This document shows, piece after piece, positions 23,767-26,012 of a DNA stretch of 64,000 bases (its first letter is position 1; each line of letters starts with the position of its first letter). The DNA comes from an uncultured Rickettsiaceae bacterium (lineage in GTDB: Bacteria > Pseudomonadota > Alphaproteobacteria > Rickettsiales > Rickettsiaceae), in the NCBI GenBank assembly GCA_963934885.1, contig CAWWAI010000001.1, forward strand, positions 13,269 through 77,268. Reading direction: 5' to 3'. A program made the translations under genes and the position numbers. A model generated the notes under the pieces. It made no database searches, was not told where the DNA came from, and saw nothing but the letters and a program-made list of their open reading frames with translations.

Positions 23767-24033
23767 ATGAATAATAAAAAATATATCTTCAATATTTATA
23801 TGTCATGGATTGTAAATCTTGGGCAATCTATGCATTATATTCAAGCATGGAAAATATTCACCACTAAATCAGCAGCAGATGTTTCTCTTTATTCTTATGT
23901 TATTTGTCTTATTTTGTTAATTCATTGGTTAGTGTATGGTATAGTGATTAAAGATAGGGTAATAATCTTTGCTGAAACGCTTGGTATTATTGGAGTGTTA
24001 ACAGTGATTTATGGAATTTTAATTTACTCTTAA
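23767..24033 (+). CDS. SemiSWEET / PQ-loop family transporter
   Basis: 88 aa with three hydrophobic helices; Q.WKIFTTKSAADVS and WLVYGI motifs. Confidence 0.8.
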   Translation: MNNKKYIFNIYMSWIVNLGQSMHYIQAWKIFTTKSAADVSLYSYVICLILLIHWLVYGIVIKDRVIIFAETLGIIGVLTVIYGILIYS

Positions 24034-24046
24034 AAATAAACCTATA

Positions 24047-24520
24047 ATGAAAAAAATTATAAATTTTTTATTCTCTCCTGTTATAGGATGGATTATTATT
24101 TTTGAACTTATAAGCGCTGCTATCGGATTTAGCACAAGCCTTGGAATGTATCCATGGTATATTAATTTAAAAAAATCATCCCTTACACCTCCAGGATATA
24201 TTTTTAGTATTGTGTGGCCATTACTATATAGTAGTTTAGCAATTTTAGGATACCGTTTATACAAATCAAAGATTAATCCTAACATATATATATTATTTAA
24301 ACTTTACTGCATACAAATGATTCTTAATTGGCTATGGAGTCCAATATTCTTTAATTTACATCTTACTTATATTGCCTTACTAATTCTAATATTAATCGTT
24401 ATTATTAACGGTTATATTATACTACAATTAAGCAGTTATAATAAGTATCTTATATTACCATATTTTCTCTGGATATGTTTTGCTTTGTACTTAAATGCTG
24501 TAATAGTAATTATTAATTAA
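24047..24520 (+). CDS. tspO: TspO/MBR tryptophan-rich sensory protein
   Basis: WY..LKK..LTPP..IF..VWPLLY, LNWLWSPIFF and LPYFLWICFA.YLN motifs. Confidence 0.9.
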   Translation: MKKIINFLFSPVIGWIIIFELISAAIGFSTSLGMYPWYINLKKSSLTPPGYIFSIVWPLLYSSLAILGYRLYKSKINPNIYILFKLYCIQMILNWLWSPIFFNLHLTYIALLILILIVIINGYIILQLSSYNKYLILPYFLWICFALYLNAVIVIIN

Positions 24521-24560
24521 ATTCAGATTTACTAAAGATAAAAAAGAAATATATAAAACT

Positions 24561-26012
24561 ATGAAAAAAGTAATTTACTGGTTTCGCGGTGACTTAAGAA
24601 TACATGACAACCCTGCTTTGTACAATGCTGCCAAAGAAGGTAAAGTCTTACCTATATATATACTAGATGATACAAATTCAGGTGAGTATCAAATGGGTAA
24701 TGCCAGTAAAGTATGGTTACACCACTCTTTATCTTCATTAAATAAAACTCTTGAAGGAAATCTAATATTTAAAAAAGGAGATCCTCTTAAAATTATAATT
24801 AAATTAGCAAGAGATAATAAGATTGATAGTGTTTACTGGAATAGATGCTATGAACCTTGGCAAATAAATCGTGATCAAAATATAAAAAAAATTCTAGAGC
24901 AATCTGGAATAAAAGTTATAAGTTATAATGCTTCATTATTGTGGGAACCATGGAATATCTTAAAAGATGATGGTACACCATACAAAGTCTTTACTCCATT
25001 TTATAGAAAAAGTTGTTTAAGCACTTTCACCCCAAGATCTCCATTACCTACACCAGAAAAAATATCTTATATAACCGATAAAAATTCTACTGATATTAAT
25101 GATCTTAAATTAATTCCGAAAATAGCATGGGATAAGAAATTTGAAAAATATTGGAGCATTGGTGAAGAGGCTGCCTATAATAAATTAGATTCTTTCTTAG
25201 AATCTGGAATAGAAGGATACAAGGAAGGTAGAAATTTTCCATCAAAAAATAATGTCTCTCGCCTTTCAGCCCACTTGCATTTTGGAGAAATTTCTTCAAA
25301 CTATATCTGGTATAAAATCAAATCACAAGAAAGTAGAAGGTGTATTCAAGATATAGATCATTTTTGTAGTGAACTAGGATGGAGAGAGTTTTCATATTAT
25401 CTACTTTATCATTTTCCTTATTTACCAAAACAAAATTTAAATTCTAAATTTAATGTCTTTCCATGGAAAGAAGACAAGAAAATGTTAGAGCTATGGCAAA
25501 AAGGTAAAACAGGAATTCCTATTATTGACGCAGGAATGCGTGAGTTATGGGAAACTGGATATATGCATAATAGGGTGCGAATGATTGTTGGTTCTTTTTT
25601 AGTAAAAAACTTACTCTTGCACTGGAAATATGGCGAACGTTGGTTTTGGAATTGTCTAGTTGATGCTGATCTTGCTAATAATAGTGCAAGCTGGCAGTGG
25701 ATAGCAGGATGCGGAGCGGATGCGGCTCCATATTTCCGTATTTTTAATCCTGTTACTCAAGGACAGAAATTTGACTCTACAGGGTCTTATACAAGAAAGT
25801 TCGTTCCAGAAATAGCCAAATTACCAGATAAATATCTTTTTAACCCCTGGGAAGCGCCAGATAATATATTAAATGCTGCTGAGGTTGTTTTAGGAAAAGA
25901 TTATCCCAATCCTATTGTTGATTTGCAGATGTCCCGAAATCGAGCACTAGATGCATTTACATCTATCAAGAATGAAGACTCTAGAGTTATTTTAAGGAGT
26001 AACTCTATCTGA
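24561..26012 (+). CDS. phrB: Deoxyribodipyrimidine photolyase (class I CPD type)
   Basis: WFRGDLRIHDNPAL, SRLSAHLHFGEIS, ELGWREF, GYMHNRVRMIVGSFL, DADLANNSASWQW and YFRIFNP motifs. Confidence 0.95.
   Translation: MKKVIYWFRGDLRIHDNPALYNAAKEGKVLPIYILDDTNSGEYQMGNASKVWLHHSLSSLNKTLEGNLIFKKGDPLKIIIKLARDNKIDSVYWNRCYEPWQINRDQNIKKILEQSGIKVISYNASLLWEPWNILKDDGTPYKVFTPFYRKSCLSTFTPRSPLPTPEKISYITDKNSTDINDLKLIPKIAWDKKFEKYWSIGEEAAYNKLDSFLESGIEGYKEGRNFPSKNNVSRLSAHLHFGEISSNYIWYKIKSQESRRCIQDIDHFCSELGWREFSYYLLYHFPYLPKQNLNSKFNVFPWKEDKKMLELWQKGKTGIPIIDAGMRELWETGYMHNRVRMIVGSFLVKNLLLHWKYGERWFWNCLVDADLANNSASWQWIAGCGADAAPYFRIFNPVTQGQKFDSTGSYTRKFVPEIAKLPDKYLFNPWEAPDNILNAAEVVLGKDYPNPIVDLQMSRNRALDAFTSIKNEDSRVILRSNSI

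What the first reader, a model, noticed from the sequence alone, without database searches (positions are those of the whole stretch)
23767..26012. SemiSWEET-TspO-photolyase operon: a light/porphyrin-stress module in a probable intracellular bacterium
Seen: three co-oriented genes with gaps of 13 and 40 nt. Established: class I photolyases repair CPD lesions using light, TspO binds porphyrins and modulates light/oxygen stress in alphaproteobacteria, and SemiSWEETs transport sugars. Inference: photoreactivation is only useful inside a translucent, sunlit host such as an alga, ciliate or other aquatic protist. Linkage with a sugar uniporter could couple light sensing to uptake of host photosynthate. 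The block interrupts housekeeping synteny, so it is probably acquired.
Basis: partly seen in the sequence, partly recalled or inferred. Interest (0 to 1): 0.62.

Follow-up and report, generated by a model that had tools for sequence, protein, structure and literature searches.

The report
TspO–photolyase photoprotection pair with odd SemiSWEET
A marine Rickettsia-family bacterium keeps a light-driven DNA-repair enzyme next to a porphyrin-binding membrane protein, a pairing already known from other bacteria, and the small "sugar transporter" in front of them is an atypical, plasmid-type variant that probably does not carry sugar.

Summary
The three co-oriented genes are real, at the stated coordinates, with gaps of 13 and 40 nt.

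- **Photolyase.** It is class III (Agrobacterium PhrA type), not class I. All the CPD-photolyase residues I checked are kept.
- **TspO.** A full-length TspO/MBR protein.
- **First gene.** It has a SemiSWEET fold (TM 0.88–0.93). It belongs to a Rickettsiaceae subfamily in which the hinge Pro is missing and the sugar-coordinating Asn is an invariant Glu. Its relatives lie on tick-Rickettsia plasmids and among IS elements.

TspO directly upstream of Phr recurs in at least three lineages of the family, including Ca. Trichorickettsia mobilis. In two relatives TspO, broken in one of them, heads a larger photolyase/SDR/amine-oxidase cluster. In 131 family genomes, 39 of 47 with TspO also have a photolyase-family gene, against 30 of 84 without TspO.

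TspO–photolyase linkage is already known: the light-induced phrB-tspO-mmpL2 locus of Mycobacterium kansasii. This scan also noted it earlier in other phyla.

All three genes fall in family-specific clades or clusters with native GC3, so foreign acquisition is not supported. Movement within the family is evident.

The full triplet was found only in this lineage. The photosynthate-uptake idea is unsupported.

Verdict: an ordinary photoprotection module, a new member of a known kind.

The parts
23615..23643 (+). Only + strand sigma-70-like promoter match upstream of the block (TTAACA-17-GATAAT). A candidate operon promoter.
   Evidence: It is a weak consensus match, and the counts in the region are not above the shuffled expectation.
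23767..24033 (+). SemiSWEET-fold 3-TM protein (88 aa) of a Rickettsiaceae subfamily. It has Ile25-Gln26 instead of Pro-Gln, keeps Trp54, and has Glu70 instead of the pocket Asn.
   Evidence: Pfam MtN3_slv 27.2 bits. NCBIfam SemiSWEET models all score below cut-off. Best PDB match by sequence is 4RNG, E 2e-7. AF2 model pLDDT 93, Foldseek TM 0.88/0.93 to 4RNG. Invariant columns are given.
24047..24520 (+). TspO/MBR tetrapyrrole-binding membrane protein (157 aa).
   Evidence: Pfam TspO_MBR 97.6 bits over profile positions 3-144 of 145. Best PDB match is Rhodobacter TspO, E 1.5e-12. In the tree it sits in a same-genus-only clade of 8, SH-aLRT 98.
24561..26012 (+). Class III CPD photolyase (PhrA type, 483 aa).
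   Evidence: Both Pfam domains match. PDB 4U63 (A. tumefaciens PhrA) scores 465 bits, against 343 for plant CRY and 269/262 for class I. The photolyase-type residues are kept in the printed alignments. In the tree it sits in a Rickettsiaceae-only clade, SH-aLRT 99.
26089..26283 (+). Small hydrophobic ORF (64 aa, GTG start) downstream of Phr. Unknown function, possibly not a gene.
   Evidence: No Pfam match.
26303..26890 (+). DsbB-like gene, co-oriented with the block. It is an orphan: not found in the 27 other genomes of the genus.
   Evidence: Pfam DsbB 42.7 bits. 0 of 27 same-genus genomes have a match.
21781..23621 (-). Left boundary: fragments of a broken TPR-containing gene. The ORFs at 22320-22898, 22953-23438 and 23445-23621 are pieces of one gene.
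   Evidence: An intact 613-aa orthologue on contig L200 aligns to window 22035-23621 (84% aa) and 21781-22065.

Best explanation
The core of the block is a photoprotection pair that belongs to the Rickettsiaceae gene pool.

- **Phr** is a class III CPD photolyase. It uses FAD, probably with a folate antenna as in Agrobacterium PhrA, to split UV-induced cyclobutane pyrimidine dimers with blue/near-UV light.
- **TspO** lies directly upstream. It is the tetrapyrrole-binding membrane protein that in other bacteria limits free porphyrin photosensitiser. This genome makes protoporphyrin itself, since it has HemF and HemH. The pair therefore covers DNA repair and avoidance of singlet oxygen in a bacterium living in sunlit marine plankton.
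- **The first gene** is a homodimer-type SemiSWEET-fold carrier of a plasmid-borne Rickettsiaceae subfamily. Its pocket Asn is replaced by an invariant Glu and it has no hinge Pro. Its substrate is unknown and probably not a neutral sugar.

The SemiSWEET-like gene sits 13 nt upstream of TspO and is most likely read from the same promoter.

What is shown: the gene identities, the residues, the fold, the recurrence of the pairs, and the distribution across genomes. What is inferred: co-transcription, the light-related role of TspO in this organism, and any functional tie to the SemiSWEET-like gene.
For: **Identities.**

**Class III assignment.**
- PhrA (4U63) scores 465 bits, against 269 for class I.
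- As a control, a Rickettsia CPF scores best on class I: 292 bits against 239 for PhrA.
- PhrA is a class III enzyme with an MTHF antenna (PMC3204975).

**Photolyase-type residues**, from the alignments:
- Asn lies four residues before the proximal Trp (plant CRY has Asp there).
- WQW (plant CRY has WQY).
- ELGWREF (plant CRY has GLREY).
- HNRVRM (plant CRY has HNRIRV).

**TspO directly upstream of Phr, co-oriented.**
- G000, G020, G090:C96 and Ca. Trichorickettsia mobilis G146.
- A TspO pseudogene lies about 1 kb upstream of Phr in G010.
- In G023:C49 TspO heads the cluster TspO-epimerase/DUF1731-DUF3429-amine oxidase-SDR-CPF-Phr-DPRP. In G090:C126 a broken TspO heads a similar cluster.

**Mobility as a unit.** A 2.3-kb stretch holding the resolvase end, TspO and Phr is 93% identical between G090 and G146, with unrelated flanks.

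**Co-occurrence.** 39 of 47 TspO-positive genomes have a photolyase-family gene, against 30 of 84 TspO-negative ones.

**Heme genes.** HemH and HemF are present.

**Literature.**
- phrB-tspO-mmpL2 of M. kansasii is induced 27-32 fold by light (PMC9861118).
- Photolyase, SDR and flavin amine oxidase form the conserved singlet-oxygen regulon (PMC5507510).

**Family origin.** The TspO and Phr trees and native GC3.

**SemiSWEET next to TspO elsewhere.** G023:C37, Rickettsia plasmid contigs G104:C2 and G123:C26, and R. asiatica pRA1.
Against: - There is no transcript evidence. The promoter and terminator scans are uninformative.
- No light-responsive regulator is nearby, and ChrR was not found in the genome.
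- Most Rickettsiaceae Phr genes stand alone.
- None of 29 non-Rickettsiales alphaproteobacterial Phr loci has TspO within 1.5 kb.
- The nearest relative G020 has TspO-Phr without the SemiSWEET gene.
- The SemiSWEET gene's neighbours are otherwise very varied.
- The co-occurrence test ignores shared ancestry.
- Some cross-genus near-identities could come from MAG mis-binning (G090, G023).
Confidence: 0.6

Rival explanations
1. Accidental neighbours in an accessory island. The three genes are cargo that piled up in a variable region next to the rvh type IV secretion genes. They are transcribed separately and have no functional connection. At most TspO-Phr travels together because it was mobilised as one cassette.
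For: - The region holds a broken TPR gene on the left and a genus-orphan DsbB-like gene on the right.
- Flanking genes lie on separate contigs in all five relatives examined.
- SemiSWEET-like relatives sit with ParB, transposases, TraD and RecD on plasmids.
- G020 lacks the SemiSWEET gene upstream of TspO.
Against: - TspO-Phr adjacency recurs with different TspO and Phr clades.
- The two genes co-occur across the family.
- TspO-photolyase linkage is light-induced in M. kansasii.
- SemiSWEET-TspO adjacency recurs in three separate lineages with two TspO clades.
Confidence: 0.25
2. A foreign-acquired operon couples light sensing to uptake of host photosynthate through a sugar uniporter, in a symbiont of a photosynthetic or translucent protist.
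For: - The habitat is marine plankton.
- The protein has a SemiSWEET fold.
- TspO and photolyase are light-related.
Against: - The sugar-coordinating Asn is replaced by an invariant Glu and the PQ proline is absent. Trp48 and Asn64 are critical for sugar uptake in LbSemiSWEET (PMC5972207).
- The same subfamily sits on plasmids of tick-borne Rickettsia.
- Phr and TspO fall in family-specific clades and the SemiSWEET-like gene's attributable relatives are all Rickettsiaceae or Rickettsiales, with native GC3.
- The photolyase keeps the repair-enzyme residues rather than the cryptochrome ones.
Confidence: 0.05
3. The CPF protein acts as a cryptochrome-like photoreceptor that signals with TspO, in analogy to CryB and TspO regulating photosynthesis genes in Rhodobacter, rather than as a repair enzyme.
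For: - Class III photolyases are the sister group of plant cryptochromes.
- The best NCBIfam score is to the plant-type cryptochrome model, though below its cut-off.
- TspO is a regulator in Rhodobacter.
Against: - All the CPD-binding and catalytic positions I checked are of the photolyase type.
- There is no C-terminal extension (483 aa).
- The closest solved relative is a proven repair enzyme.
- There are no photosynthesis genes to regulate.
Confidence: 0.07

Closest known systems
Agrobacterium tumefaciens PhrA (PDB 4U63) and Caulobacter class III CPD photolyases
   Same: Full-length alignment at E 2e-138. The same two domains. The same photolyase-type residues at the FAD N5 site and the CPD pocket. 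Alphaproteobacterial origin.
   Different: No biochemical data here. The antenna cofactor is untested. In the window it sits behind TspO, which is not reported for PhrA.
Light-induced phrB-tspO-mmpL2 'photolyase locus' of Mycobacterium kansasii (PMC9861118)
   Same: A photolyase and a TspO adjacent to a membrane transporter gene. All three respond to light in that organism.
   Different: The gene order, the photolyase class and the transporter family differ (MmpL against SemiSWEET fold). Induction by light is not shown here.
Core RpoE-ChrR singlet-oxygen regulon (photolyase, cfaS, SDR, flavin amine oxidase) of Rhodobacter and Pseudomonas
   Same: Relatives of this genome carry Phr with SDR, amine oxidase, epimerase/DUF1731 and DPRP genes, and TspO, broken in one of them, heads two such clusters. 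G000 keeps the SDR, epimerase, amine oxidase and a DPRP fragment on contigs C97 and C107.
   Different: ChrR was not found in G000. In the window the cluster is reduced to TspO-Phr.
Bacterial SemiSWEETs (TySemiSWEET 4RNG, LbSemiSWEET 4QNC, EcSemiSWEET 4X5M)
   Same: About 90 aa, a three-helix bundle with TM-score 0.81-0.93, and the conserved Trp and Tyr-Gly of TM2.
   Different: No Pro in the PQ motif (Ile25). The pocket Asn64 equivalent is Glu70. Both features are invariant in the subfamily. The protein scores below all NCBIfam SemiSWEET cut-offs. Relatives are plasmid-borne in Rickettsia.
Rhodobacter sphaeroides TspO (PDB 4UC1, 8E7X)
   Same: TspO/MBR family with full-length Pfam coverage and the closest solved structure.
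   Different: It reaches only 72 bits on the alphaproteobacterial TspO equivalog model, whose cut-off is 180. There is no photosynthesis gene cluster. It lies in a family-specific clade.

Membership tests
Class III CPD photolyase | N-terminal photolyase alpha/beta domain plus FAD-binding helical domain | tested here: met
   PF00875 at 161 bits and PF03441 at 289 bits, both full length.
Class III CPD photolyase | Closer to class III references than to class I, plant CRY, DASH or 6-4 enzymes | tested here: met
   4U63 (PhrA) scores 465 bits, plant CRY 343, class I 269/262, DASH 211. As a control, a Rickettsia CPF prefers class I: 292 bits against 239.
Class III CPD photolyase | Photolyase-type active-site residues: Asn at FAD N5, the Trp pair and Glu of the CPD pocket, and Met | tested here: met
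   Read from the alignments printed: NSASWQW, ELGWREF and HNRVRM, against D...WQY, GLREY and HNRIRV in plant CRY2. The assignment of roles to these residues rests on my knowledge of E. coli and A. nidulans photolyase.
Class III CPD photolyase | Light-dependent CPD repair and an MTHF antenna | not testable with these tools
   Needs purified protein or complementation.
   Class I structures score about 200 bits below PhrA. NCBIfam PRK10674 scores 350, below its cut-off of 506.
Plant-type cryptochrome | Asp at the FAD N5 position, loss of CPD-pocket residues, and a C-terminal extension | tested here: not met
   It has Asn, the pocket residues are retained, and the protein is 483 aa with no extension. 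TIGR02766 scores 392, below its cut-off of 604.
TspO/MBR | Full-length match to the family profile | tested here: met
   PF03073 at 97.6 bits over profile positions 3-144 of 145.
TspO/MBR | Equivalog of alphaproteobacterial (Rhodobacter) TspO | tested here: not met
   NF047825 scores 72 bits against a cut-off of 180.
TspO/MBR | Tetrapyrrole binding | not testable with these tools
   Only an endogenous ligand source is shown: HemH and HemF are present.
SemiSWEET | A protein of about 90 aa with a three-helix bundle of the MtN3/PQ-loop fold | tested here: met
   AF2 pLDDT 93 with three helices. Foldseek to 4RNG gives TM 0.88/0.93 and rmsd 1.1 Å. Pfam MtN3_slv scores 27.2 against a cut-off of 23.7.
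SemiSWEET | Pro-Gln hinge motif in TM1 | tested here: not met
   It has Ile25-Gln26. The position is Ile or Val in all 26 aligned subfamily members and in the genome hits.
SemiSWEET | Substrate-pocket Trp and Asn (LbSemiSWEET Trp48 and Asn64) | tested here: not met
   Trp54 is kept but the Asn is Glu70, which is invariant. The role of these residues is taken from PMC5972207.
SemiSWEET | NCBIfam SemiSWEET subfamily score | tested here: not met
   Scores of 37.9, 21 and 19 bits against cut-offs of 80, 200 and 100.
SemiSWEET | Sugar transport | not testable with these tools
   Needs a transport assay.
Operon (single transcription unit) | Same strand, short spacers, and no internal terminator or promoter | tested here: inconclusive
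   Spacers are 13 and 40 nt. No terminator-like site and no internal + strand promoter-like site were found, but the scan has no statistical power here.
Operon (single transcription unit) | Transcripts spanning the junctions | not testable with these tools
RpoE-ChrR singlet-oxygen regulon | ChrR anti-sigma factor present | tested here: not met
   TIGR02451 has no match in G000, which is 95% complete.

The most novel reading that the evidence does not exclude
The SemiSWEET-fold subfamily that lacks the hinge Pro and has an invariant Glu is not a sugar carrier. Instead it is a dedicated partner of TspO. The two small membrane proteins would form a mobile, plasmid-spread unit of Rickettsiaceae that moves or disposes of a tetrapyrrole-related or cationic small molecule. 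In aquatic lineages this unit has been joined to the photolyase. The supporting observation is that the two genes lie side by side in three separate lineages with two different TspO clades (G000/L200, G023, and spotted-fever-group plasmids).
Probability: 0.1. Interest if true: 0.6.

Novelty: new member of a known kind. Interest (0 to 1): 0.33.

Why it matters
It places a known photoprotection pair, photolyase plus TspO, in an obligately intracellular family.

The distribution has an ecological pattern. Class III Phr and intact TspO are common in the aquatic, protist-associated genera sampled: the window's genus and Ca. Trichorickettsia. In Rickettsia proper, class III Phr was not found. TspO appears there only as broken plasmid copies. 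In one complete genome of the window's own genus, Phr is cut off next to a transposase gene. This gives a simple genomic marker of light exposure in the life of uncultured Rickettsiaceae.

It also corrects two annotations that would otherwise spread: 'class I photolyase' and 'sugar transporter'.

Finally, it flags a conserved SemiSWEET variant with an acidic pocket whose substrate is unknown. No physiological role is established for any prokaryotic SemiSWEET (PMC5972207).

Tried and rejected
- **Empty-site test.** The flanks of the block lie on separate contigs in all five closest relatives, so no empty site could be shown.
- **Mobile-element scars.** Repeat searches found only short AT-rich chance matches. 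Rfam found nothing in 21000-28000.
- **Promoter and terminator scan.** No signal above chance.
- **Composition.** Neither GC nor GC3 gave evidence of foreign origin.
- **TrxR-SemiSWEET synteny.** A hint in one genome (L177) did not generalise.
- **PhrA structure paper.** The class III structure paper is not held, so class III-specific antenna and electron-transfer residues were not checked.
- **Genus name.** I considered naming the window's genus (Megaira-like) from genome sizes. I rejected this because it is untested. Only Rickettsia (g47) and Ca. Trichorickettsia (g51) were identified through named proteins.
- **Literature.** No Megaira or Rickettsiaceae paper among those listed mentions photolyase. 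No paper links SemiSWEET with TspO.
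Full report
**Observation**

The window has three + strand ORFs at exactly the stated coordinates: 23767-24033 (88 aa), 24047-24520 (157 aa) and 24561-26012 (483 aa). They are separated by 13 and 40 nt.

Pfam assigns them as follows:
- MtN3_slv, 27.2 bits, just above the cut-off of 23.7
- TspO_MBR, 97.6 bits
- DNA_photolyase plus FAD_binding_7, 161 and 289 bits

The same order of genes is present on an independently assembled Tara Oceans scaffold found in three samples. 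A JGI contig that is 89.7% identical carries the first gene, the same 13-nt spacer and the first codons of TspO.

The window is contig C1 of a 1.31-Mb, 129-contig genome that is 95% complete. Its relatives in public records are named Rickettsiaceae bacterium MAGs and SAGs.

**What the three genes are**

*Photolyase.* It is not class I.
- Its best solved relative is Agrobacterium PhrA (4U63): E 2e-138, 465 bits. Plant cryptochromes follow at 343 bits, and class I enzymes come much lower at 269 and 262 bits.
- PhrA is the type class III CPD photolyase, the sister group of plant cryptochromes, and carries an MTHF antenna (PMC3204975).
- As a control, the CPF gene of a Rickettsia genome scores best on class I: 292 bits against 239 for PhrA.
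- In the printed alignments the window protein keeps the repair-enzyme residues where plant CRY has changed them. Asn lies four residues before the proximal Trp (CRY has Asp). It has WQW (CRY WQY), ELGWREF (CRY GLREY) and HNRVRM (CRY HNRIRV).

*TspO.* It matches the whole Pfam profile and is nearest to Rhodobacter TspO structures. It is far below the cut-off of the alphaproteobacterial equivalog model.

*The first protein.* It has a SemiSWEET fold. The AlphaFold model has pLDDT 93 and three helices. Foldseek gives TM 0.88/0.93 and rmsd 1.1 Å to 4RNG.
- It has Ile-Gln where SemiSWEETs have the Pro-Gln hinge.
- It has Glu70 where LbSemiSWEET has Asn64. Trp54, the equivalent of Trp48, is kept.
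- Trp48 and Asn64 are the residues that coordinate sugar, and their mutation cripples uptake (PMC5972207).
- In 26 aligned relatives G19-Q20-S21-M22-H23, Q26, W54, Y57, G58 and E70 are invariant.
- Family genome hits show the same IQA/AE signature. A second Rickettsia paralogue has VQA/AN, and distant 93-aa homologues keep PQ.

The odd residues are therefore a conserved subfamily trait, not decay. 'Sugar uniporter' is not a safe annotation.

**Distribution**

Counts are for the 131 Rickettsiaceae genomes searched.

| Gene | Genomes with a match | Genera |
|---|---|---|
| TspO | 47 | 19 of 35 |
| Photolyase homologue | 69 | 24 of 35 |
| SemiSWEET-like | 54 | 11 of 35 |

- Most SemiSWEET-like matches are in two genera of complete genomes.
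- Named cluster members identify genus g47 as Rickettsia and g51 as Candidatus Trichorickettsia mobilis.
- In Rickettsia the photolyase homologues are 37-40% identical to the window protein. The one checked is class I type.
- Class III Phr is present in 113 of 201 sampled alphaproteobacterial genomes.
- 39 of 47 TspO-positive genomes have a photolyase-family gene, against 30 of 84 TspO-negative ones. The odds ratio is 8.8, not corrected for shared ancestry.

**Linkage**

TspO directly upstream of Phr on the same strand occurs in:
- G000
- its closest relative G020 (81% and 83% aa identity)
- G090:C96
- Ca. Trichorickettsia mobilis G146

In G010 a TspO pseudogene lies about 1 kb upstream of a Phr copy.

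In G023:C49 TspO heads a larger cluster, confirmed by Pfam: TspO, epimerase/DUF1731, DUF3429, flavin amine oxidase, SDR, a second CPF, Phr, DPRP-type photolyase, DCC1-like, DUF423, DUF2237. In G090:C126 a broken TspO heads a similar cluster.

Photolyase, SDR and flavin amine oxidase are the conserved core of the RpoE-ChrR singlet-oxygen regulon (PMC5507510). TspO is induced by photo-oxidative stress in Rhodobacter capsulatus (PMC7074977).

G000 itself keeps the epimerase and SDR on contig C97, and a DPRP fragment plus the amine oxidase on C107. The window block therefore looks like a reduced or relocated part of that gene set.

A directly comparable case is published. In Mycobacterium kansasii the cluster phrB-tspO-mmpL2 is induced about 30-fold by light (PMC9861118). 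STRING links TspO with PhrB in Pseudomonas and Rhodobacter (PMC4237140).

Earlier notes of this scan describe TspO-photolyase islands in planctomycetes, actinobacteria and Anaerolineae. I did not test those notes.

By contrast, most Rickettsiaceae Phr genes stand alone. None of 29 non-Rickettsiales alphaproteobacterial Phr loci has TspO within 1.5 kb.

**The SemiSWEET-like gene's company**

The full triplet was found only in G000, its Tara copies and probably contig L200.
- G020 has an unrelated 397-aa gene upstream of TspO-Phr and no copy of the SemiSWEET-like gene was found. That genome is 85% complete.
- The gene lies next to TspO in three separate settings:
  - here, 13 nt away and co-oriented
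  - in G023:C37, divergent, with TspO broken
  - on Rickettsia plasmid contigs G104:C2 and G123:C26 and on R. asiatica plasmid pRA1, in the order SMR, SemiSWEET, WGR (WGR seen in G104), TspO. There the TspO belongs to the other family clade and is frameshifted in G104 and full of stops in G123; in pRA1 it is unannotated.
- Other close homologues (63-77% identical) sit in unrelated contexts:
  - behind an RNase_T-domain gene with ParB and HU genes
  - behind an AlkB-like gene between Tn3 and IS110 transposases
  - beside CBS and Lon genes
  - among IS elements
  - beside TraD and a RecD-like helicase on R. amblyommatis plasmids

The gene is thus a mobile accessory gene of the family, present in tick-borne Rickettsia. 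This argues against a role tied to algal photosynthate. Its repeated meeting with TspO is suggestive but could reflect clustering of cargo genes.

**Acquired or inherited?**

- In a 75-row tree the window Phr groups with G005 and G018 (SH-aLRT 98), inside a clade of seven Rickettsiaceae sequences (SH-aLRT 99).
- In the TspO tree all Rickettsiaceae sequences plus one Micavibrio sequence form one clade (97). The window protein sits in a same-genus clade of eight (98).
- GC3 of all three genes is within 0.7 SD of the window's genes.
- DNA identity to G020 is 82% for TspO-Phr, against 83-85% for the flanking core genes.
- No repeats or RNA elements mark the borders.

Recent foreign acquisition is therefore not supported. 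Movement inside the family is evident:
- Genus-g1 Phr genes fall into at least four clades mixed with other alphaproteobacteria.
- A 2.3-kb segment comprising the resolvase 3' end, TspO and Phr is 93% identical between G090:C96 and Ca. T. mobilis G146, with unrelated, transposase-rich flanks.
- A Phr gene alone is 95.6% identical between G090:C126 and G145.

Some of this could be MAG mis-binning.

The neighbourhood of the block is variable. The left neighbour is a broken gene that is an intact 613-aa TPR protein in L200. The DsbB-like gene on the right has no match in 27 other genomes of the genus. G020 has an Ada/Ogt-like gene at the corresponding side of the VTT-virB9-virB8 genes.

**Mechanism**

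The best-supported reading (confidence 0.6) is a photoprotection pair.
- The class III photolyase repairs UV-induced pyrimidine dimers with blue light.
- TspO handles the cell's own porphyrin photosensitiser. The genome encodes HemF and HemH.
- The SemiSWEET-like carrier of unknown, probably non-sugar substrate is read from the same promoter.

Gene identities, residues, fold, linkage and distribution are shown. Co-transcription, light control and the function of TspO here are inferred. No regulator is nearby and ChrR was not found, so expression may be constitutive.

The habitat fits: marine plankton metagenomes for the window, and a Paramecium symbiont (my own knowledge) for Ca. Trichorickettsia. 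The claim that photoreactivation only makes sense in translucent hosts is weakened by class I type photolyase homologues in nine sampled Rickettsia genomes. In the other direction, a complete same-genus genome (G012) has only a 63-aa Phr remnant lying beside a transposase gene. The plasmid TspO copies of Rickettsia are broken in G104 and G123. Both fit loss where light is irrelevant.

**Verdict**

This is a real gene block and a new member of a known kind of light-stress module. Two annotations are corrected: the photolyase is class III, and the first gene is an atypical SemiSWEET variant. The ecological story is supported in part. The photosynthate-coupling and foreign-acquisition ideas are not supported.

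Noticed in passing
G000 contigs C97 (2749 nt) and C107 (2336 nt); not in the window: C97 carries epimerase/DUF1731 and SDR genes and ends with the first 42 nt of a second Phr-like gene (MKKLICWFRRDLRI, 88% nt identity to the window Phr start). C107 starts inside a DPRP-type photolyase gene that is followed by the amine oxidase. A second, unassembled Phr copy probably sits in a canonical SDR-Phr-DPRP cluster.
   Followed up: partly
L087 (G090:C96) 4680-6998 and L089 (G146, Ca. Trichorickettsia mobilis) 5650-7965: A 2.3-kb segment holding a resolvase 3' end, TspO and Phr is 93% identical between genomes placed in different genera. The flanks are unrelated, and in G146 they are several transposases. 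It looks like a mobile TspO-Phr cassette, unless G090 is mis-binned.
   Followed up: partly
window 26303-26890: The DsbB-like gene just downstream of Phr has no match in 27 other genomes of the genus. It is a lineage-specific addition.
   Followed up: partly
window 21781-23621 (- strand): The ORFs listed as separate small genes here are fragments of one gene. That gene is an intact 613-aa TPR protein on the 89.7%-identical contig L200.
   Followed up: partly
L208 (G012:C1) 2740-4264: In the one complete genome of the same genus the Phr gene is reduced to a 63-aa N-terminal remnant lying about 200 nt from a transposase gene.
   Followed up: no
L091 (G023:C49) and L136 (G332, a non-Rickettsiales alphaproteobacterium): The amine oxidase, SDR and DCC1-like proteins of the G023 photolyase cluster are 66-84% identical to those of G332, and the two Phr proteins are sisters in the tree. 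This means either transfer of the whole cluster or a foreign contig in the single-cell genome.
   Followed up: no
L190-L196, L205, L207: The SemiSWEET-like gene is repeatedly placed directly behind or before DNA-processing genes on plasmid-like DNA: an RNase_T-type exonuclease, an AlkB-like 2OG oxygenase, and WGR plus a RecD-like helicase.
   Followed up: no
L077 (G020:C42) 408-1457: G020 has an Ada/Ogt-like DNA-repair regulator gene next to the VTT-virB9-virB8 genes, at the place where G000 has the DsbB-like gene and the photolyase block. No homologue of it was found in G000.
   Followed up: partly
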